Below are positions 471-64,000 of a DNA stretch of 64,000 bases, piece by piece. Source of the DNA: Leucoraja ocellata. Lineage: Eukaryota. Made by a program: the position numbers and the translations under genes. The DNA is taken from contig JAWMAR010000049.1 in the NCBI GenBank assembly GCA_036785375.1, positions 5,890,001 to 5,954,000 on the forward strand. Direction: 5' to 3'. Position 1 is the stretch's first letter. The number at the start of each line of letters is the position of its first letter. Under the pieces are notes generated by a model, which was given only the letters and a program-made list of their open reading frames with translations, had not been told where the DNA came from and did not search any database.

Positions 471-787
471 CTTATTTCCGGATGGGTTCTGCAACTTTAA
501 TGTGACAAACCAACAATCTTCCAGTCTTGACTCGTGTTTGCCTGATTTCAGACTTGTCTACCTGATCATAGCCAGATCATTTCCAGTAACTTCCTAGCCC
601 CTACTCCCCGACCTGCCAAATTTCCTGAAATGTTTACCCTTTCCAATTCCTCATTTACTTCCTATCTCTTGGCAACATCACCTTCAGATATGGTGTTATT
701 TACTGACATCAACATTGAAGTGTCTACCCACGCTTTTCTTGATGACTCCGCTACTAATATCAGTTGACTCGGATTAGTTATCAAATA

Positions 788-882
788 AAAGGTAGACAAA
801 AGTGCTGGAGAAACTCAGCGGATGTGGCAGTGTCTATGGAGCGAAGGAAATAGGCAACGTTTCGGACCGAAACCCTTCTTCA
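788..882 (-). mobile_element. Penelope-like short element with hammerhead-type core, 16-bp TSD
   Basis: Minus strand reads CTGAAGAAGGGTTTCGGTCCGAAACGTT; flanked by GATTAGTTATCAAATA (772-787) and GATTAATTATCAAATA (883-898). Confidence 0.7.
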
Positions 883-1946
883 GATTAATTATCAAATATC
901 CAGTTTTGAGTTGGCCATAACTACTTCTGTTTTAACATTGCTATTGATTCCATTCCCTTAAATAGGCTTAAACTCTGACTTTACTATAGAATAAACTTTT
1001 ATACCACTAAGTAACGGATAAGTCAAAGTATTTCTTCTGACAGTCATTGTGAAGGTTTCCCCATAATGTTAATTATGATGTTTGTGATAACTGCTAAGCT
1101 GTTGTACGTCTCTTCCAAACCAATCTATTATGATTCTTCCGTCTTAATGCTGTTTGATTTCCCTGGTGGCTGTAAATAAAATGACATTGCTTTTATCTCT
1201 GAGTAGCTGTGTGAAGGATCAAGGATAAAGAACTTTGTGTAAGTGCTTCAACAGATAACCCCAAATTAGGCTGAAAGTCAGTTGTACAGCACTTCAATAA
1301 ACCCTTCAGACCACATGTCCGTGCTGACTTTGTCCCATTTGCCTTCACTAGGTCCATATTATTCCATGCCTTTTTTTTAAGCCTAAATGTCTCTCAAATG
1401 CACTTATTGTACCTGACTTCCTTGATTAGAATTACCCAAATAATAACACATAATTTGAATTTAATGTAGCGCCGTATTTACAATGTTTAGGTGCCATTTG
1501 TCTGTCTGCTGTTTAGAATAGTTGATACAGTCCAATAAACATTTCTTCCATTATTATAAAAGGAAAAGAAAAACTCCAGTTTCAGGATGGTTGGAATAAG
1601 TGCCTGCTATTGAAATTGTTTAGCCTTTCAGAGTATAAAACTGGTTATAATTATGAACATGGATCTGAAACATTATTGACCAATGTATGAATGCTCTCCT
1701 TTTCATCAGATTAAATCTATCACTTGTTCTGTCCCTTTTGTACCAGTTTTGAGTGGCGGTAAATGCCAGCTGTTTGAAATGTGATGCAGAAATGTTTGAA
1801 TAATTCTAATATGCAATATTGTTTTTTTGCTTTCTAAATCTTTGAGGGTTTTATTTTGGCTAAATAAGCCAACAGCGAAACAAATCACAAAAATAGGATT
1901 TTAATTTAAACATGAACCAAGGATTAATAGTTTCTATAATTACTTT

Positions 1947-13719: not shown

Positions 13720-14990
13720 GACCACTGTAGAATAAGAAACATGGCTGATATCACTGCTGCCTCAACCCTGCATTTCTGTCCATCCGTGTTAACCTTTCAT
13801 CCCCTGTCTGCCTCACTTTCAACATATTAGCTGTATTCAAAATATTCAATATTAAACTCTGCATCCTCTGTCCTTTGAGGCAGAGTGTTCTAAACATTTG
13901 CAACTCTTTGAGATACATTATTTACCAAGCCAGTGTCTTCAGTGAATAACTCGTTATTTTTTTACATTTACCCCTTGTTCTCTTTACGCCCACTAGTGGA
14001 AAGTTTCTTTATATACATCCTATTAAGAACATCCAGAGATTTGTATGAAGAATGGTCCTGAACCAAGATTTCACTTACCAATTTTCTCCAGAGACGCTGC
14101 CTGACCCGATGAGTTATTTTGTGTCTATCTTCACAATTTTGTATGATTTGGTGGCTGCCACTTATTTTTCTAAATGTCAGAGCTACAAGCCTGGCTTGTC
14201 CAATCTTTCTACATGAGGCAACCTTCCTATTCTAAGCATCAGTCCAGTAATCCACAATCCGCTCCCCCCCCCCCCATGATTTGTAATCTACTTTAAAACA
14301 TTTTTAAAAAGCTATTACAAATCTCCACTTTCCGCGAGACAGTGGGAGTGGGGCTGATGAGCGTGGGCACCGATTGGACGAGAGAGACGTCGGTCAGCAG
14401 GCAGTGGTGGTGGGGGGGGGGGGGGGTGGGGGAAACCATGATGATTCAGCGCAATCATTGAAGAAGGGAGGTGTCGGTCAGAGACGGAAGTAGGGGGGTG
14501 GAACTGAGGATAGAGGGTGGTGATTGGAGGAGGGAGACGTCCGTGGAGCAAAGATCATGGAGCGAAGCTTGAATCAGCCCGTTCGCGGGGCTTTTCATCG
14601 CCCGGCACTGCCAACCACGGGATCTTCCACCGCCCCGCGGTCAAATTGCTATGGCGAGGTGATCGAGGCTCCCGATGTTGAAGCCCCCATGAAAGGGCTG
14701 ATTGAAGCTCCACTCTATGATCTTTGCTCCACGATTCGGGGAGGACGAAGCTGCTGTTGCTGGAGTTCGGAGTCGGTCACCAACCAGGTCAGCTTCCGAT
14801 GTTACTGTCCACAGGGCCCCCCCCCCCCATGTTTTGAGAGCGATTTCTGTGCCTGCAGTAAACCATCTCCAAACTGATCAACTCATCAACATCTTTCCTT
14901 AAATAAGGAGATCAATTGGTGCACAGCAAACCAGGTGTGCTTTCACCCATACACTTTATCTGTAGCACAACATCCCTACTTTTGTGTTTC
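13720..14990 (-). mobile_element. Old CR1-like fragment with nested insertions
   Basis: Degenerate reverse-strand CR1 3' sequence interrupted at ~14045-14130 and 14251-14855. Confidence 0.45.
14251..14855. repeat. GC/CpG-rich insertion of unknown class
   Basis: Abrupt GC-rich block with poly-G/poly-C runs; CAGTAA on both sides (14245-14250, 14856-14861). Confidence 0.45.
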
Positions 14991-21564: not shown

Positions 21565-21751
21565 TACTAACTCAGCTGGTCAGGCAGCATCTCTGGAGGA
21601 AAGGAAAAGATAACGTTTCGGGCTGAGTCACTTCTTCAACCCGAAATGTCACCTATTCCTTTTCTCCAGAGTTGCTGTCTGACTCGCTGAGTTACTCCAG
21701 CTCTTTATGTCTGTTTTCAGTTTATACCAGCATCTGCAGTTTCTTCCGACA
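21565..21751. mobile_element. Penelope-like hammerhead-type element, inverted pair of arms
   Basis: Minus arm ...ACGTTTCGGGCTGAGTCACTTCTTCA abuts plus arm ACCCGAAATGTCACCTATTCC...CCAGCATCTGCAG. Confidence 0.7.
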
Positions 21752-21999
21752 AATTGAGTGTTCCCCGCATTTCTGTTTAATTTCAGAGTTTCAGTACCTG
21801 TATTATATCACTAGATGCGTTTTACCCACATCAAATGTTAATGATAACTTGTCAGATTCACCGAGTGCATCTCACTCATTTTGCATTTGGCTGCTCCATT
21901 GGCCAGCTCATTAATAAAGATTCAACATTTATAATTGAAGGATCAAGCCCTGAGTGCCATCAGTACAGATAGTTTCACTGTAACGCATTAGCTGCGTTA

Positions 22000-22296
22000 A
22001 GGGCCTGTCCCACTATACGAGTTTACCCGAGAGCTCTCCCGAGTTTAAAAAAAAATCAAACTCGTGGTAAGTACGTAGCGGGTACGTCGGAGCTCGGGAC
22101 GTCTCTTAGCGACTCGTAACGCTAACGGCAGTTACTCGGGGAAACGCGGTAAGCTCGTGAAGTTTTTTCAACATGTTGAAAAATGTCCACGAGAGCCCCG
22201 AGTACCTACGAGCGGCTATTACTGTAATTCTCCGAGTTCGAATCAGGAGAACCTCTGGAGAACACTTGAATTACCTCGTACAGTGGGACAGGCCCT
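22000..22296. mobile_element. PIF/Harbinger-like MITE
   Basis: TIR AGGGCCTGTCCCACTATACGAG / CTCGTACAGTGGGACAGGCCCT; TTA at 21997-21999 and 22297-22299; homolog at 62145. Confidence 0.85.
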
Positions 22297-36628: not shown

Positions 36629-37430
36629 GTAAGAAAATTGAAACCCTATTTGCTGATATGACATTTTGTAGATATCTTTTCCCTTCGTTTCAATTTCAAA
36701 ATTATTTTGATCTCTACTTTTGATTAATACACCAAAATAAGAATATTAATATAATGCCAAGGTACTTTTAATCCCAGTTGTCCCAAAATTGTACAAGATT
36801 TGGATCCACACCCAGATTGAATTCATTCCTTGTTTACCTCATTATAAAATGAAACTGTTCTGATACGCAAAGCATTTTTAATTTTACTGAACTTATAGTG
36901 GGAACACTTAAAAGTGGGAATAATTTGCATTTACTAGATGAAAAACTACTTTTGAACAAATTGATTTTAATTCTCATATATAAAAAATATTTAATTAACA
37001 GCAACTTCTGTGTAATAGAAAAATATGTAACTACATATTGAATATGCAGTCATTATAATTAATATGTGGCTTCTACTTAGTGTTATTCAGAGTGACTTAA
37101 ATGCATATCATGATTTGGCAATGCGATAGGATTTTGTTTGTATTCAATCACTTCATTTTGTAATTATGCTGTCATTTGACTACTTTTGCCACTCAGCTTA
37201 TTTCAGAATCTGCTGGAGTTGTGATTAACTGTATGAACATTTTATCTGTGTGGCTACTGTCCATCAACAAATGTTCTGCACTTTCATTGCATTATCTGTT
37301 TTGGTTTGAACTTGGTTAAATATAAATATTGGTCGTCATTATTTTGAGGCAATGGTGATCTCAGTAACTCTTTTTGGATGAGATCTGTCGATTATATTTT
37401 TGAGTACTGATTAATTGCTGAAAGTAATAC

Positions 37431-37572
37431 TGGAGAGAAGGAATGGGTGATGTTTCGGGTTGAGACCCCCCCCCCACCCCATTCCTTATCTCCGCTGCCT
37501 GTCTCTCTGAGTTACTCCAGCATTTTGTGACTACTTTCGATTTAAACCAGCATCTGCAGTTCTTTCGTACAC
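37431..37572. mobile_element. Penelope-like inverted-arm element with perfect 14-bp TSD
   Basis: GCTGAAAGTAATAC at 37417-37430 and 37573-37586. Confidence 0.8.
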
Positions 37573-38074
37573 GCTGAAAGTAATACGACAGGATTCTATT
37601 TATAGATCATTTATATTAGATTTAGTCTTGTGCCATTAATTCAAAACAACATTATTCATGGACATACACATTAAACTGTCACAATGATCAACAGTGCCAT
37701 ATTGATGACTTTCAATACCACTTAAATATTCCTAATTTTAATATTCCACATATGCCAGAATAAAGCTGTTTGCTCAGTATGAAAATCTTAAGGATTCATT
37801 TGTTCCAAAGACAATGCCAGCCACCTGGTTTTCTTTTGCCATAACAAATCATGCCCAAAGCTGATTTTCAACTGTTATATTATTATTACAAAGATCTAGC
37901 TAATTTTCCTTCGGAATTAGAAAAAATGATGAAAGGCTTATTACTCAGCTATATGATTCATAGTTATACAGCGCAGAAACTGGCCCTTTTGGCCAACCAG
38001 CCCATAACAACCAAAAATGTCCTATTTATACTCACGTTTGGCCTAAATCCTTCTAACACGTTGCTATCGATGAA

Positions 38075-41447: not shown

Positions 41448-43432
41448 CAAATATACCACAATAGAAAATAGTCTTAATTTTCTTAAGTACGTCACCTTAA
41501 TCATAAGACAGCACCCACCACTAGGGCACCTTTGCTGGAGGACACTTTTCATTTGTTCTAGTCTTTCGCCATCCTTGCACAATCAATCCATTTTTATTCA
41601 GAGGGTTTGATGTTGGGATGTTCACTATTGATTACACAATATTCTATGTGCAACTCCTTAGAAAATGAAACCATTTTAGCCAACATTTGAGCAAAGGCTG
41701 ACAATTGGCAAGTGACATTCACACCTCAAATGTACTGGGCAATGAAGGTCAACAACAGAGGCCCCGCCATCTAACTTTGACTTTCAAGATCCTTTGCTGA
41801 TTTTCCACCAAACCTTCGATTGGTCCAGGACATAAAATTGTGTGGCTATAAAGAAGGTGAATTCTGTGGTGAATGACTAATCTCTTAAAATTCCAAAACT
41901 TTTAACCATGTACAAAATCAGGAGCATGGGTGAATACTTTCCACTTGCCTAGAAGAATGAAACTCTAATTATCATCAAATTAGATAAAGCAGTTCATTTG
42001 ATTATCGCAAGCATCACCTAAATGCACATTTTCTTCACTGCTGTGCTCAGTGGCTCCAATCTGTACTGATTATAAAATGTACTATAGTTATTTACCCAGG
42101 CTGCTGCTACAAAAGCTCCTGATATGTGAGGGACAATGGAAACAAAACTACTTGCAGGCTCCCTTCATGTCTTGGAAATCTATATTGATCATTGAGTCTA
42201 AATGATAGAACTTACCACCCTGCCGGATTGTTGGAGAACCTTCCACCAGAAGGTCTGTTGTAATAATATGGTTAACCAATACTTTTTCAAGGGTAGACAC
42301 AAAATGCTGGAGTAACTCAGCAGATCAGCCAGCATCACTGGAAAAAAGAATAGGTGATGTTTTGGTATAACATTTGTTCAGCTAATGTTTACCTTGATCA
42401 AATTCAGACCAATTTCCTTGGATATTTCCTTGGGACAAAACTTCCAGTTTAATTATTCAACTTGCATCTTTTAAAGCTGAGAAATGGGAATGCAAAAGTA
42501 TTGATGTTCTGATGTTGGAAACTGGGGCATTTTAGCAGCCAGAGATAAAGGACATTTTGCTTCTTGCTATCGCTTTTAATAGATGATGCCAAGTGGTTTG
42601 CGGTTAAAAGGAGTGATAAAAGTCTTCCTGTCCATGAAGCTTCAAATATTTTGTTTTGCAATAAAAACAGAAGATGCTAGAGGTACTCACCAGGACAGGC
42701 AGTGCCTGTGGAGGGAGAAACTGTTAATATTTCAGATCTGTAGCATTTCATTATGCTTGGAAAAGCGACAAAATAAGTGCATCTGATAATGTAGAGAGGA
42801 CGGGTGGAGCGTGAAGCAAAAATCATGTCCTTGGTAAGATAGCAATCAAGATTGCCCAAGTAATAGCACTGAAAACAATTATATCTAGATAATAGCTGAA
42901 CTCCATGTAGGAGTACAGACAGAGGAATATGAGTGAGGGCAGTTAGAGAAATGAAAACTTTGCTGGTATTGGGAGATGCAGAACAGAGTAATTGCTGGAA
43001 TAAAGGAAAGCACGCAGCAGGTCTGGCAACATCTTAGATAAGAACTGAATAAATGTTTACCTGGCATTACAACTTTACAGTTAGAAATGCTAAATTATCT
43101 GGAATAGCTGAATTCAGGATTGAATCCCAAGGGCGACAACATACAAAATATCTGATCTGATTGGATAGCATGCAAGAATAATGCCTCTCATTGTACCTCG
43201 GTACAAGCGACAATAACAAACCTAAACATAAACAACAAAGGATAAATGGCTTAAGAACTGGTCTCCATTTGTTTTTAATGCCTGAAGTTAAATGTTTTTT
43301 TTGTGTTTTTTTTTACTTAGTCCTCAGAACTGAGTAACATACTGTTGAAGGAACAGATTTGTGATGCTGCTAACTATTTAATAATGGCAAAGGTTATGCT
43401 GATGTGATGAGAAGAAATTTTCTCTTTTTCAG

Positions 43433-45884: not shown

Positions 45885-46177
45885 GTAATGTATTGGTTCA
45901 AAATGGCTATTAAAAATTTTAATTACCTTTATTATAATTTCTAAATCTAATCTACTTTTCGTATGCGTCAAAGAAATTATGACTGTTAAATGTAAAAATA
46001 TGGAGTTCTATTCAACACAGCTTTTGATTTTGCTGAAGTAATGGAGAGTATTTAAAGAATGAGAATGGAAAATGTGAATTGGACATGGGGTTATATCATT
46101 GTCAAAATATGATTGTGAAAACCTAGGAATTGTTTGGTGCAGTTCATCCCTCTAGGATGTTAATAATACTCTTTCAG

Positions 46178-46273
46178 AGTCTGACGAACTGTCTCGACCT
46201 GAAACGTCACCTATTCCTTTTCTCCAGAGTTGCTACCTGACCCACTGAGTTAATCCAGCATTTTGTATCTATT
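46178..46273 (+). mobile_element. Penelope-like arm with hammerhead-type core, sense to USP32
   Basis: CTGACGAACTGTCTCGACCTGAAACGTC (46181-46208) followed by the family body ACCTATTCC..CTCCAGAG..CTGAGTT. Confidence 0.7.
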
Positions 46274-46363
46274 CCTTTTATTATCTGTGTAGCCTAGAAT
46301 CTTTTTGATCTTTGTTTCATGAGTATTGTGGCTTGTAATACACATTCTTTATCTTTTGCACAG

Positions 46364-56004: not shown

Positions 56005-56245
56005 GTTCTTCAGACTGAGAATAGGCGAGAGGGAAATTAGAGATAAAGGGTAGAAAGAATAAACATTTGTTCTTTGTAACTTTTCATATTTCTAGTTTCC
56101 CTCTCCCCTGACTCCCCTGACGAAGGATCTCAACCCGACATGTCACCTTTTCCTTCTCTCCAGAGATGCTGCCTGACCCGATGAGAGTCCAGCATTTTGG
56201 GTCTATCTTCGGTGTAAACTAGCATCTGTATATCCTTCCCTCACA
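56005..56245. mobile_element. Penelope-like element, inverted arms
   Basis: TTCTTCAGACTG arm opposite CTGACGAAGGATCTCAACCCGACATGTCACC...CAGAGATGCTGCCTGACCC. Confidence 0.65.
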
Positions 56246-58880: not shown

Positions 58881-59237
58881 CTATTTCCACACTATAACTC
58901 TGGTAGTAATGGCTTTGGGTACCAACTTATATGGACCCTAATGTCACATTTAGTGAGGTGTTCAGATATTGAAGACTCTTCTGACTTAGTTAACTCAAAA
59001 AAATATTTTTTTGATTTGGGTAATCTAACGTCTCTCTCCTGCTCAAAATTCTTGACAATGGCAGCCTCTCAACATCAACCACGCGCAGCCCAGTTAAACT
59101 AGAGCGTAGCATCTGCCATATGACATGCTTGGAACAGCCAATTTTGACATTACAGCCTGTTTTGAGTGTAATTAGGCGGTTACAGCTGATGAGATTGCGA
59201 GCTCGTACTCCAAAGAGTCAAGAGTGTTTTAAGTGGT

Positions 59238-59332
59238 TACACAAAAAAGCTGGAGAAACTCAGCGGGTGCAGCAGCATCTATGGAGCGAAGGAAATAGGC
59301 AACGTTTCGGGCCGAAACCCTTCTTCAGACTG
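59238..59332 (-). mobile_element. Penelope-like arm with hammerhead-type core
   Basis: Minus strand CTGAAGAAGGGTTTCGGCCCGAAACGTT (59301-59328). Confidence 0.75.
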
Positions 59333-59339
59333 GTTTGTA

Positions 59340-59899
59340 GGTTGTGCTGAGTCTGGCTGCAGGACGGAACATGTGTTCAGGGGGGAGGCGGCCGGCGGGA
59401 GGGTTTGTCGGCGGCGCCCGGGCAGGATGGAGGTGTAAGTGAGCGCTGCTCGTCCGCCGGAATGTCCGGGGGTTGGAGCGGGTCCGGGTCCCTGAGCCCC
59501 CGACTCCTCGCTCGGTGTGAAGCTGCCACCTCGGGCGCGCTTCGATGCGAATCTCCCTTCGGGCGGTCCTGCGCCATGTTGTAGATCCGCCCCGGCCCCA
59601 TCCCCGTCCCGGACCCATGTTGACGCCACCGCCCGCCCGGCCCCGACTTCCGGCGGTAGCGTCACCCACCGCCCGACTTCCGGCGGCAGCGTCACCCACC
59701 GTCCGGTCCCGACTTCCTGCGGCAGCGTCACCCACCGCCCGACTTCCGCGGAAGCGTCCCCCACTGCCCCGCCTCGACTTCCGGCGGCAGCGTCACCTTA
59801 GGCCGGACCCGACTTCCGGCAGCAGCGTCACCCACCGCCCGGCCCCGACTTCCGGCGGCAGCGCCACCCACCGGTCGGCCGCCGCCTCTGCCCACGTCT
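59340..59899. promoter_or_regulatory. CpG-island-like block (candidate promoter or TE cargo)
   Basis: Very GC/CpG-rich against an AT-rich background; YY1-like GCGCCATGTT at 59571-59580; repeated ACTTCCGG. Confidence 0.45.
59643..59880. repeat. GC-rich VNTR, 7 copies of ~30-36 bp
   Basis: Unit CCGACTTCCGGCGGCAGCGTCACCCACCG(YCCGGYC), starting near 59643, 59673, 59709, 59739, 59775, 59809 and 59845. Confidence 0.9.
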
Positions 59900-60334
59900 A
59901 AGAGTCAAGAGTGTTTAAATGTCATATGTTCAATGATACTTTATTGTCACATGTACCTAGATACAGTGAAGTTCTTTGTTTTGCCTGCAATGCACAAAGT
60001 ATGCAAAGAGTCGCCACGTATAGGGCCCCAACAGAGTTACGAAAGTATTAATCACAGAAATAAAAGTATTAATTAATGAGACCCGAAATGTCACCCGTTC
60101 CTCCTCTCCAGAGTTGTTGCCTCTCTGAGTTACTCCAGCATTGTGTCTATCTTAATTACCGGCCCGATGGTCCCTCTCAGTTCTCTCTGCGGCCCCAACC
60201 CCGCGGTCAGGTCCCTCTTTGTTCTCGGGACTCACATGGCCCCGTCCTCTATCGACCACCAGGCCCCCCACAGCCCATTCTCGGCCACCCGCCGCTGGGT
60301 CCACTCTTGGACGGCCCTGCAGCGCTCGTCGGGA

Positions 60335-60864: not shown

Positions 60865-61162
60865 ACAGAGAATAGACAGAACCTTTTTCCCCGGGTGCTA
60901 ATGTCAAAGACGTGGCAGCCTTTATGCACGAGGGTCAAAGTTTAAAGGAGATGTGCAGTGGGGACCAGGAACATGCTGCCAGGGATGGTGGTGGAGACAG
61001 TTAAGATAGTGGCGTTTAAGAGACTTTATGCTAAGTGTGAATATGCAGGCAGCGGGAGGAATATGGACCACATGCAGGCAGAGGAGATTGTTTATCTTGG
61101 TATCATGTTTGGCATGGACATTATGGGCTGAAACATCTGCTCCTGTGCTGTATTGTTCCATG
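60865..61162 (+). mobile_element. Degenerate CR1-like 3' fragment
   Basis: Similar to 49960-50262 and 63526-63750. Confidence 0.65.
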
Positions 61163-61295
61163 TGTCACTTGTTTCCAGTAGTTGCTGGTAATTCGATTGA
61201 GGAATTGAGAGTTATGGGGAACTGGCACATAAGAGGTGTTGAGACTAGCTGAGATATGCCATGACGATATTGAATGGCAGGTCAGACGTGAAGGG

Positions 61296-61599
61296 CCAGT
61301 AATGCAGCTGGTAGTGCTGCTGCCTCACAGCGCTACCCGAGACCAGGGTTCAATCCTGACCTGGGCTGCTCGGTTTGTGGAGGTTGCTCGTTCTCCCTGT
61401 GACCACGTGGGTTCGCTCCAGGTATGCTGGTTTTCTCCCACATCCCAAGTTCGTGCAGGTTTGTAAGTCTCAGTCAATTGCCCCTGACGTGCAGGGAGGG
61501 GAAGAGAAAATGGGATTACGTAAAACAGGCCGATCGATGGTCGGCATGGACTCAGTGGGCCGAGTGGCCTGTTTCCCTGCTGCATCGCTAAACTAAACT
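61296..61599 (+). mobile_element. HE1-like SINE
   Basis: GCTGCTGCCTCACAGCG..GGTTCAATCC..GTGACCACGTGGGTT..GGCCTGTTTCC..AAACTAAACT. Confidence 0.8.
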
Positions 61600-61615
61600 C
61601 CTCCTGATCTTATTT

Positions 61616-61883
61616 TGTGTAGGAAGGAACTACAGATGCTGGCTTACACTGAAGATAGACATAAAATACTGGATTAACTCAACGGGACAGGCAGCATCTC
61701 TGGAGAGAAGGAATGGGTGACGTTTCGGGTCGAGACCCTTCTCCTTCACAGCTGACTCCATGGCTTAGTTGGTTAAAGTGCCTGTGTGGGAAACGGAAGA
61801 AGGATCTCAACCCGAAACGTCACCCATTCCTTCTCTCCAGAGATGTTGCCTGTCCCGCTGAGTTACTCCAGCTTTTTGTGCCT
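61616..61883. mobile_element. Penelope-like inverted-arm element enclosing a tRNA-like segment
   Basis: Arms are near-perfect reverse complements (GGGACAGGCAGCATCTCTGGAGAGAAGGAATGGGTGACGTTTCGGGT / ACCCGAAACGTCACCCATTCCTTCTCTCCAGAGATGTTGCCTGTCCC). Confidence 0.8.
61754..61785 (+). pseudogene. tRNA-Thr-like 5' half (fragment)
   Basis: GACTCCATGGCTTAGTTGGTTAAAGTGCCTGT versus recalled vertebrate tRNA-Thr GGCTC(C/T)(A/G)TGGCTTAG(C/T)TGGTTAAAGCGCCTGT; no T-arm or 3' acceptor strand. Confidence 0.65.
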
Positions 61884-62103
61884 GCCTTTATTTTCTTGTG
61901 TTCCTGCTGTTACTGCAAAAACAAATGCAGACTGTTGTGATTATTAGTCTTTTATTGTTACTAGTGAGTTTTCAATTATATTTTTTGGCCTATGCGTATG
62001 CAAAAATACACATCAGTGAACCAGCTGAGCGCTTTAAACCATTTTATTTGGTGGATGCTGGGTTATATTATAATGCAGAGAAAAGTGATCTGCACAATTC
62101 AGT

Positions 62104-62116
62104 CGCCATCTGCTGG
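62104..62116 (-). promoter_or_regulatory. Candidate CTCF site
   Basis: Minus strand CCAGCAGATGGCG fits the core CCASYAGRKGGCR. Confidence 0.4.
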
Positions 62117-62144
62117 CAGTAACTGGAAAATCATTCACTTGTTA

Positions 62145-62447
62145 AAGCCCTGTCCCACGGTACGAGTTCATTCCAAGAGCTCTCCCGAGTTTTAAAAAAA
62201 TCAAATTTGTGGTCAGCACGGAGAATTAACGCAGCGGGTACGTCGGAGCTCGGGGACGTCTTTTAGCGACTCGTAACGCTAATGGCAGGTAAGCACGGGA
62301 AGACTCGTGAAGATTTTTCAACATGTTGAAAAATGTCCACGAGAGCCCCGAGTACCGTCGAGTGGCCATTACCATAAATCTCCGAGTTCGAATCAGGGCA
62401 AGTTCGGGAGAGCCCTTGGAATGAACTCGTACCGTGGGACAGGGCTT
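62145..62447. mobile_element. PIF/Harbinger-like MITE
   Basis: 44-bp TIRs with one mismatch (62145-62188 / 62404-62447); TTA at 62142-62144 and 62448-62450. Confidence 0.88.
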
Positions 62448-62491
62448 TTAGCATCAAGATGTGAGAAAGACGACTGTGGGTCACTAAGGAT

Positions 62492-62625
62492 TGTGTAAGA
62501 AGGAACTGCCGATGCTGGTTTAAACCGAGATAGACACAAAAAGCTGGAGTAACTCAGCGGGACAGGCAGCATCTCTGGAGAGAAGGAATGGGTGATGTCT
62601 CGGGTTGAGACCCTTCTTCAGACTG
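62492..62625 (-). mobile_element. Penelope-like arm (core mutated GAAA to GAGA)
   Basis: Same family body; minus strand CTGAAGAAGGGTCTCAACCCGAGACATC. Confidence 0.72.
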
Positions 62626-62646
62626 GTCACTGATTGACTGGAGTTA

Positions 62647-62840
62647 GATGAAAATGCTGGAGAAACTCAGCGGGTGAGGCAGCATCTATGGCACGAAGGA
62701 ATATGTGACGTTTCGGGTCGAGACCCTTCTTCAGCCCACTATGTTAAGCCTGAAGAAGTGTCTCGAAACGTCATCTATTCCATCGCTCCAGCATTTTTAT
62801 CTACCTTCGATTTTCCAGCAAATGCAGTTCCTTCTTAAAC
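62647..62840. mobile_element. Penelope-like inverted-arm element with perfect 15-bp TSD
   Basis: GATTGACTGGAGTTA at 62632-62646 and 62841-62855. Confidence 0.82.
62707..62734 (-). ncRNA. Minimal hammerhead ribozyme-like core
   Basis: CTGAAGA-A-GGGT(CTCG)ACCC-GAAA-CGTC: both conserved boxes, a 4-bp stem II and a GUC triplet; stem I is very short. Confidence 0.55.
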
Positions 62841-62929
62841 GATTGACTGGAGTTAATCAGTCGTTGCACTCCAGCTAAATATAATTTCTTAACACCGTAG
62901 GAAAGTAAATAGTAACGTATGCTACAGGA

Positions 62930-63750
62930 AGATCAATATTTTACCAGGATGTTACCCAGATTAGAGAATAATAGCAAAAAGGACAGGTTGGAGTTGGACA
63001 AACATGGATTGTTTTCTCTGGAACGTCGGGGGTTGACGGGTGACTGGATGAAAATACATTAAATTATGAGAGGCATAAATAGAGTAGATGTGGTCTTTTC
63101 CCCCAAGGTTGAAATGGTAAATCTTTCTCCCCCACTCCTCCCATCCCTCCCTCCACCCTTGTGCTCCACCTGGACTCGCACCAATTTCCTGCCCCCTCTT
63201 CCTCATCCCGCATTCCCTTCTTTGACTTCACAATTCGCAACTCTTCAATCCTTTTGTCTCACACCTTCTGTCGTTTTATCTCTGGCCTTTGTCTACCATC
63301 TGCCAATCGAAACCCCCTTGCCTGTTCATCTATCACCTGCCACGCGTTATCTTGCCACTTCTCCCTTCTCCCCACCACCCCCACCCCACCACAATCAGTC
63401 TGAAAAAGGGTCCTGATCCGATACATCACTTATCCACGTTCTCCAGAGATGCTGCCTGACCCTCTGAGTTAATCCAGCACTTTGTGTCCTTTTTTTTTTG
63501 TAAACCAGCATCTGCAGTTCCTTGTTCAGGGTGAGAGGGGGGAGGTTTCAAGCAAATTTATGAGGCAAGTGTTTTTGCACAGAGCGTGGTAGGTGTCTGG
63601 AACGCGCTGCCAGGGGAGTAGGTAGAAGCGGTTGCAGTAGCAATGTTTAAGAGGCATTTAGACAGACACATGAACAAACAAAGAATAGAGGGATACAGAT
63701 CATGTGCAGGCAGATGAGAACAGTTTAGGCTGGCATCATGGTGGACAGAC
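62930..63750 (+). mobile_element. CR1-like fragment split by a Penelope-like insertion (~63121-63525)
   Basis: CR1 ORF2 sequence stops near 63120 and resumes at ~63526; the insert has a pyrimidine-rich leader, CAGTCTGAAAAAGGGTCCTGATCCGATACATC and the family tail. Confidence 0.7.
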
Positions 63751-63751
63751 A

Positions 63752-64000
63752 GGGCGGCACGATGGCACAGCGGTAGAGTTATTGCCTTGCAGTGCCTACT
63801 GCGCCAGAGACCCGGGTTCGATCCCGACTACAGGTGCTGTCTGTTAGGAGTTTGTGATCGCGTGGGTTTTCTCCGATATTTTCGGCTTCCTCTCACACTC
63901 CAAAGACGTACAGGTCTGTAGATGAATAGGTTTGGTACAAATATAAATTGTCCCTAGTGTGTGCAGGGTAGTGTTAATGTGCGGGGATCGCTGGTCGGCG
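63752..64000 (+). mobile_element. HE1-like SINE, truncated by the window end
   Basis: GGGCGGCACGATGGCACAGCGGTAGAGTT..GACCCGGGTTCGATCCCGACT..CACACTCCAAAGACGTACAGG. Confidence 0.88.

What the first reader, a model, noticed from the sequence alone, without database searches (positions are those of the whole stretch)
62707..62734. Abundant short repeat family carries a minimal hammerhead ribozyme core (Penelope-like)
Seen: the motif CTGANGA-A-stem/loop-GAAA-CGT(C/T) heads a ~100-150 bp repeat with at least 12 loci in the window (~790, 14050, 21570, 37430, 42295, 46180, 56010, 59240, 60080, 61620, 62490-62840, 63400). The best cores are 62707-62734 (-), 59301-59328 (-), 856-883 (-) and 46181-46208 (+). 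Stem II pairing persists across variants (GGGT-CTCG-ACCC; GGGT-TTCG-GCCC). Known: CUGANGA/GAAA/NUH is the hammerhead core, and minimal hammerheads with a tiny palindromic stem III (here ACGT) are characteristic of Penelope-like element pLTRs and are thought to cleave as dimers. Inference: this is a non-autonomous, ribozyme-bearing retroelement family in an elasmobranch genome that could easily be annotated as an anonymous SINE. Caveat: stem I pairs by only ~2-4 bp, so activity is uncertain.
Basis: partly seen in the sequence, partly recalled or inferred. Interest (0 to 1): 0.72.

Follow-up and report, generated by a model that had tools for sequence, protein, structure and literature searches.

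The report
Hammerhead-bearing ends of active Penelope retrotransposon
The repeat is the short end piece of a Penelope-type jumping gene that still has intact full-length copies in this genome; it carries the miniature self-cutting RNA motif already known from such elements, whose activity here is untested, so it is ordinary in kind though extremely numerous.

Summary
The motif is real: 8 hits against 0.9 by chance, 18 arms at 14 loci in the window, 90,901 perfect cores genome-wide (control 0). It is not a separate SINE or retrozyme. It is the pseudo-LTR end of Penelope-like elements (RT, CX4CXXC linker, C-terminal GIY-YIG; Neptune type by inference). One young family has intact 1,221-aa ORFs in 3,946-bp tandems, with the hammerhead 164 nt before the ATG. 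Copies end 3' at two fixed sites (about +94 and +130); 28 of 28 two-armed insertions with a 13-18-bp duplication use one of each, as expected of a dimeric Penelope protein priming both strands. The focal copy is one arm of such an insertion (15-bp duplication) and has lost most of stem I. 39 of 98 young copies stop at the hammerhead's front edge (44-fold per-base excess), while few copies start at the cleavage site; the cause is open. Stem II shows no double-sided covariation, stem I is 2 bp, and cleavage is untested. Minimal hammerheads in fish Penelope elements are published, and this scan has reported the family many times on other DNA.

The parts
62647..62734 (-). Left (short-site) arm of the focal two-armed insertion; begins at hammerhead C3 (62734)
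   Evidence: closest to the family copy L173 (82 of 93 nt)
62707..62734 (-). Minimal hammerhead core CUGAAGA / stem II 4 bp with CUCG loop / GAAA / palindrome ACGU / GUC; predicted cut after 62707; stem I reduced to one pair in this copy
62750..62840 (+). Right (long-site, tail-bearing) arm, with deletions in stem II and downstream
62735..62749 (.). 15-nt filler between the two head-to-head arms
   Evidence: sequence
62632..62646 (+). Target-site duplication, left copy (GATTGACTGGAGTTA)
62841..62855 (+). Target-site duplication, right copy
62491..62628 (-). Separate neighbouring copy of the older family, long 3' site; core mutated (GAGA, CATC)
59230..59336 (-). Copy of the young family (97 of 98 nt identical to the intact unit); core, stem II and 2-bp stem I intact
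779..890 (-). Older copy of the UUCG-loop lineage; core and stem II intact; 10-bp shared flank word
46177..46274 (+). Decayed copy; stem II broken
21566..21757 (.). Head-to-head pair of arms
37430..37578 (.). Head-to-head pair of arms with 14-bp duplication (37417, 37573)
61613..61924 (.). Head-to-head pair of arms with about 50 nt between them
14034..14136 (+). Decayed copy
42285..42365 (-). Decayed copy lacking the 5' core
42632..42738 (-).
56086..56245 (+). Decayed copy with about 30 nt of upstream 3'UTR
60080..60157 (+). Decayed copy lacking the 5' core
63390..63527 (+). Decayed copy, long 3' site

Best explanation
The repeat is the hammerhead-bearing pseudo-LTR end of Penelope-like retrotransposons, likely of the Neptune clade, and the short copies are likely made afresh, one by one, as heavily 5'-truncated insertions by the element's own RT-endonuclease. 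Shown: in intact tandems the order is ORF (RT, linker, GIY-YIG), 3'UTR, hammerhead (C3 = 0), ATG of the next unit at +164; copies end 3' at about +94 or +130, carry 13-18-bp duplications, and two-armed insertions use one site each. Inferred, by analogy with the Anolis Poseidon protein in vitro: a protein dimer binds the RNA just downstream of the hammerhead, nicks both target strands with a stagger of about 14 bp, primes cDNA at the two internal sites and copies towards the RNA 5' end; the cDNAs are joined to the target or head-to-head to each other, often at the palindrome TCAG-T-CTGA at the hammerhead's edge. Uncleaved RNA is the likely template. The hammerhead would cleave only as a dimer (ACGU palindrome) and probably with protein help; most genomic copies, including the focal one, are dead.
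For: GIY-YIG directly upstream in copies found from the window query; pLTR-ORF-pLTR unit of 3,614 bp in the older family; intact 1,233-codon frames at 99-100% identity and 3,946-bp tandems in the young family; Pfam RVT_1 E=1.6e-6 and GIY-YIG E=2.5e-4 to 0.013, both below gathering score; motifs DKG, YIDD, CX4CXXC, YIGET, CCHH; 4,717 exact copies of the young 93-mer, control 0; 3' ends of 98 young copies: 64 at +92-100, 31 at +124-136, 3 other; 28 of 28 pairs with a duplication are long+short, 4 further pairs had no clear duplication; both tail variants occur in short and long copies; 5 of 317 sampled arms start at +28, the cleavage product. Two adjacent RT start sites, both strands cut, predicted dimer, unprocessed RNA as substrate, protein-assisted ribozyme: PMC11167929.
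Against: Plain random truncation does not explain the pile of 5' ends at 0 to -5 (39 of 98; 44-fold per-base excess over -6 to -117). No ORF remnant in the window itself. Clade assignment rests on motifs and host type, not on a tree. No fold of four family representatives puts stem II in the monomer ensemble (probability 0.05 or less), stem I is 2 bp and no pair covaries on both sides, so ribozyme activity is not shown.
Confidence: 0.85

Rival explanations
1. Short copies are run-off ('strong-stop-like') cDNAs from an RNA whose 5' end lies at the hammerhead's front edge, made by an internal promoter at the initiator-like TCAGTC; only read-through tandem RNA gives long copies.
For: Hard upstream limit: among 40 young copies called within 12 nt, 39 end at 0 to -5; also seen in single-armed copies; YCAGT is kept before CTGA in families with unrelated 3'UTRs. 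Penelope has an internal pLTR promoter (PMC2377424) and an Inr-like TCACT is noted in rotifer pLTRs (PMC3846280).
Against: In D. virilis the start site lies 46 nt before an intron that ends at the hammerhead, not at it. No extra G from a cap at the junctions. The AGT may be kept for stem I or as a splice acceptor. Initiator consensus is recalled, not tested.
Confidence: 0.25
2. A separate non-autonomous element (SINE-like or retrozyme) that amplifies from short masters by ribozyme processing.
For: Very high copy number; sharp ends; in the 599.6-kb sample 82 of 110 core-bearing copies had no library 3'UTR upstream (several may belong to families missing from the library). pLTR-derived retrozymes exist in vertebrates.
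Against: No tandem arrays of the short unit (1 of 110 tandem); ends do not fall at the cleavage site; sequence and variants shared with ORF-linked copies; 59 of 98 young copies extend upstream into UTR or ORF.
Confidence: 0.07
3. The conserved AG before TCTGA is a 3' splice site and short copies come from spliced RNA.
For: Long pyrimidine tract and YAG directly before stem I; in D. virilis the intron ends at helix I.
Against: Only 1 of 40 young short ends falls at -1, the exon boundary; no shared upstream exon; candidate donors of the older family are absent from the young one; no GT..AG joint among the 15 shown in either read lay of a relative (474 and 97 joints not shown).
Confidence: 0.08
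4. The motif only looks like a hammerhead and serves as a protein-binding or promoter element.
For: Stem I 2 bp, no double-sided covariation, core predicted sequestered.
Against: All core positions, the extra base before stem II, G10.1-C11.1 and the palindrome match the published min-HHR; family-level changes keep pairing or stay within NUH, and the loop is the variable part; same place as in other PLEs.
Confidence: 0.15

Closest known systems
Minimal type I hammerheads (min-HHR) in pLTRs of metazoan PLEs (Cervera and de la Pena 2014, PMC4209133; text parts 1-2 of 4 read)
   Same: Core, extra nucleotide before stem II, G10.1-C11.1, palindromic 15.2-16.2, location in pLTR, mostly dispersed single copies; reported in Xena, Poseidon and Neptune elements of fishes.
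   Different: Stem II 4 bp and stem I 2 bp (S. mansoni 7-8 and 4-5; D. virilis also 2 bp). 90,901 perfect cores here against about 9,000 in Xenopus tropicalis and 4,000 in coelacanth (different descriptors; this assembly may hold duplicated haplotypes).
Neptune-clade EN+ PLEs (Craig et al. 2021, PMC8557442; passages and section 10 read)
   Same: Single ORF, RT then CX2-5CXXC linker then C-terminal GIY-YIG with CCHH; partial tandems, inverted 5'-truncated copy, 30-40-bp tail at one end.
   Different: ORF is long (1,221 aa) with a low-complexity Pro-rich stretch before the RT; most copies are 95-135-bp stumps.
Poseidon of Anolis (PAc; Frangieh et al. 2024, PMC11167929; parts 1-2 of 4 read)
   Same: Two internal RT start sites downstream of the hammerhead that define the tail; no copies or reads piling at the cleavage site.
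   Different: PAc ATG lies inside the hammerhead and the start sites inside the ORF; here the ATG is at +164, downstream of both sites. Different clade.
Non-LTR retrozymes (bioRxiv 10.64898/2026.07.22.740005; parts 1-3 of 5 read)
   Same: pLTR-derived, type I hammerhead, found in the one chondrichthyan sampled.
   Different: Retrozymes are head-to-tail tandems of the short unit; these are dispersed single or head-to-head copies with target duplications.

Membership tests
EN+ Penelope-like element | Single ORF with RT and C-terminal GIY-YIG | tested here: met
   (Pfam hits below gathering score; motifs present)
EN+ Penelope-like element | Partial or full tandems forming pLTRs | tested here: met
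EN+ Penelope-like element | Inverted 5'-truncated copy, one-sided 30-40-bp tail, target duplication | tested here: met
Neptune clade | CX2-5CXXC linker before the endonuclease; CCHH motif | tested here: met
   linker shared with Nematis
Neptune clade | RT phylogeny with named references | not tested
   No named reference set was at hand; only Neptune and Poseidon were found in vertebrates, and Poseidon lacks the linker
PLE minimal hammerhead | CUGANGA, GAAA, NUH core | tested here: met
   intact with stem II of 3 or more pairs in 38 of 150 sampled copies
PLE minimal hammerhead | Stem II with G10.1-C11.1 and an extra 5' base; palindromic stem III | tested here: met
PLE minimal hammerhead | Compensatory covariation | tested here: inconclusive
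   Only one-sided changes (U-A/U-G at 11:16 and -1:28) and CpG decay; families too close
PLE minimal hammerhead | Stem I | tested here: inconclusive
   2 bp in masters, one pair in the focal copy
PLE minimal hammerhead | Self-cleavage as dimer or with protein | not testable with these tools
   needs bench assay
Non-LTR retrozyme | Head-to-tail tandems of a short HHR unit | tested here: not met
   1 of 110 sampled copies tandem
Independent SINE-like family | Own lineage distinct from the autonomous partner | tested here: not met
   identical core and shared tail variants in short and long copies; no tree was built

The most novel reading that the evidence does not exclude
The pLTR makes a short RNA that starts at the hammerhead's front edge and holds both RT start sites, so the element mass-produces strong-stop-like 95-135-bp insertions. 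With a still-intact family, over a million stumps and a strict one-long-one-short rule for the two arms, this genome would be the densest record of the Penelope insertion mechanism.
Probability: 0.25. Interest if true: 0.55.

Novelty: new member of a known kind. Interest (0 to 1): 0.25.

Why it matters
The kind is known, so the ribozyme itself is not a surprise. The value is practical: Penelope mobilisation has been reconstituted for one element only, and the role of its hammerhead is open. Here a young family with intact ORFs and thousands of near-identical insertions fixes the two RT start sites, the target stagger and a 5' stop at the ribozyme edge, which makes these questions testable. It also means a large share of this genome's apparent SINE content is Penelope ends (at least 5.5% of sampled bases match one family reference).

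Tried and rejected
Rfam: no hammerhead model hit; best was a chance miRNA match to the 21569-21693 fold-back. PDB sequence search of the ORF: none. No RNA holder listed for the window stretch. Raw RNA reads of a relative (4 runs, 2 studies, 1-5% of each run read): 51,919-67,296 reads per run lay on the older end piece, 84-95% running on into unlike sequence, i.e. passenger transcripts; no pile of molecule starts or ends at the hammerhead, but the test needs a fifth of local depth and is insensitive; the strand bias in single-cell runs was not interpreted. A helix pairing the core with the tail (an off switch) appears in the young family (probability 0.7) but 0.46, 0.2 and 0.0 in three others, with fold z-scores of -0.34, 0.51, 0.31 and -2.28: not used. 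DNA search with the young 95-mer returned nothing because common words are skipped. BLAST start peaks at +4, +11 and +20 partly reflect mutations in the reference copy; the profile and the young copies were used instead. First-look candidate counts are not copy numbers. Literature: no paper held 'hammerhead ribozyme', 'Penelope' and 'skate' together; 'Leucoraja' had 0 occurrences in the 30 papers listed; two searches listed nothing on this family; one of the supplementary files of PMC4209133 could not be searched and the others had no shark or skate term; the preprint's supplement was not seen; Lunse et al. 2017 is not held and is known only from a review passage. Repbase and Dfam were not available, so the family may already be named there.

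Full report
Observation. The minus strand at 62734-62707 reads CTGAAGA-A-GGGT-CTCG-ACCC-GAAA-CGTC. The loose core pattern has 8 hits in the window against 0.93 expected. A profile of the short unit finds 18 arms at 14 loci and none in a Markov control. Genome-wide, a strict degenerate core has 90,901 exact matches, with 0 for the reversed control. In 60 stretches of 10 kb from the 40 longest contigs there were 317 arms in 599.6 kb, which extrapolates to about 1.8 million arms in 3.44 Gb; many fetched loci come in near-identical pairs, so duplicated haplotypes may inflate this. Positions below count from hammerhead C3 = 0.

What lies upstream. Among 30 genomic copies found with the window query, several share upstream sequence of different lengths, which translates to a GIY-YIG endonuclease. 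Walking upstream gave the RT and a pLTR-ORF-pLTR copy with a 3,614-bp unit, broken by stops and frameshifts. Several families with different 3'UTRs share the hammerhead. A young family has open frames of 1,233 codons, 99-100% identical over the query, and head-to-tail tandems of 3,946 bp. Its protein has 1,221 residues from the ATG at +164, with DKG, YIDD, a CX4CXXC linker, YIGET and the CCHH residues; Pfam RVT_1 and GIY-YIG match below their gathering scores. Of 120 listed homologues, 109 have the YIG motif and 108 of those the linker. The linker marks Neptune and Nematis (PMC8557442, passages), and only Neptune and Poseidon were found in vertebrates (preprint), so Neptune is inferred; no tree was built. 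The window copy at 59230-59336 matches the young unit at 97 of 98 nt; the focal arm is closest to an older sister family (82 of 93). The window holds no ORF remnant.

Anatomy of insertions. The young 93-mer has 4,717 exact copies; I examined 98, from the first 30 loci and 60 further stretches listed on contigs 1-3, two of which are duplicates of each other. Their 3' ends fall at +92-100 (64), +124-136 (31) or elsewhere (3); older families show the same two peaks. Of 32 head-to-head pairs, 8 of them from loci chosen as inverted ORF pairs, 28 have a shared flank word of 13-18 nt (duplication plus microhomology), and all 28 combine one long and one short arm (0.5^28 is about 4e-9). The focal copy is the short arm of such an insertion, 62647-62840, flanked by a perfect 15-bp duplication. 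A one-sided 30-40-bp tail and an inverted copy are described PLE features (PMC8557442; PMC3846280, passages), and the Anolis protein starts reverse transcription at two adjacent internal sites, cuts and extends both strands and is predicted to be a dimer (PMC11167929).

The 5' ends. 39 of 98 young copies stop at 0 to -5; 10 of the other 59 stop in the next 112 nt, a 44-fold per-base difference. These copies were selected for an intact 0 to +92, so ends inside the ribozyme are unseen there, and microhomology blurs ends by a few bases. In the unselected sample 5 of 317 arms start at +28, the cleavage product, no more than at neighbouring positions, so cleaved RNA is unlikely to be the template, as found for PAc. 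Short and long copies share both tail variants, and 1 of 110 sampled copies is tandem. This argues against a separate SINE or retrozyme. The cause of the stop is open: joining at the palindrome TCAG-T-CTGA explains many two-armed junctions, but single-armed copies stop there too; an RNA start at the initiator-like TCAGTC (consensus recalled) is the boldest reading; a splice boundary fits poorly (1 of 40 ends at -1).

The ribozyme. Core, extra base before stem II, G10.1-C11.1 and the ACGU palindrome match the published minimal hammerhead, reported in fish Xena, Poseidon and Neptune elements, inactive as monomer and weak as dimer (PMC4209133). In 150 sampled copies spanning the core, 43 keep it and 38 also keep 3 or more stem II pairs; family-level changes are one-sided (U-A to U-G in stems I and II, GUC to GUU) and the loop varies; none is double-sided. 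Stem I has 2 bp. Predicted folds of four family representatives sequester the core and give stem II a probability of 0.05 or less. The focal copy has filler bases in place of the 5' strand of stem I and is unlikely to cleave. Activity is untested.

Verdict. A real and very abundant feature, but a new member of a known kind. The scan has 69 notes fitting 'Penelope hammerhead' in this genome and similar reports from other genomes, which I read after forming my view and do not count as evidence. Interest 0.25.

Noticed in passing
G000:C49:5217378-5220523 (L002) against window 60995-64000: The 3.1 kb around the finding has a 98% identical second copy 730 kb away on the same contig; many other fetched loci also come in pairs, suggesting segmental duplicates or retained haplotypes.
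   Followed up: no
window 63750-64000: GC-rich repeat with tRNA-like boxes, probably a tRNA-derived SINE (family not identified; ARAGORN finds no tRNA in the window).
   Followed up: no
window 62148-62447: About 300-bp element with terminal inverted repeats (AAAGCCCTGTCCCACGGTACGAGTTCATTCCAAG) next to the focal copies, MITE-like; a related copy lies at 22154-22268.
   Followed up: no
window 59600-59890: GC-rich minisatellite of 30-36-bp units containing GACTTCCGG, just upstream of the young copy at 59230-59336; possibly a CpG-island promoter region.
   Followed up: no
L227:5533-9195 (P0001): The young ORF has a long Pro/Ala-rich low-complexity stretch (about residues 165-495) between the N-terminal domain and the RT; listed homologues are mostly 700-950 aa.
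   Followed up: no
L123, L124, L129-L131, L134, L135, L142-L144: A group of older-family copies carries a different shared AT-rich 5' segment joined to the ORF's 5' part, often with CA-rich repeats; possibly a chimeric subfamily.
   Followed up: no
L291, L319: Junctions where a short copy is joined through CAGT or CTGCAG to another piece of the element, suggesting template jumps by microhomology.
   Followed up: partly
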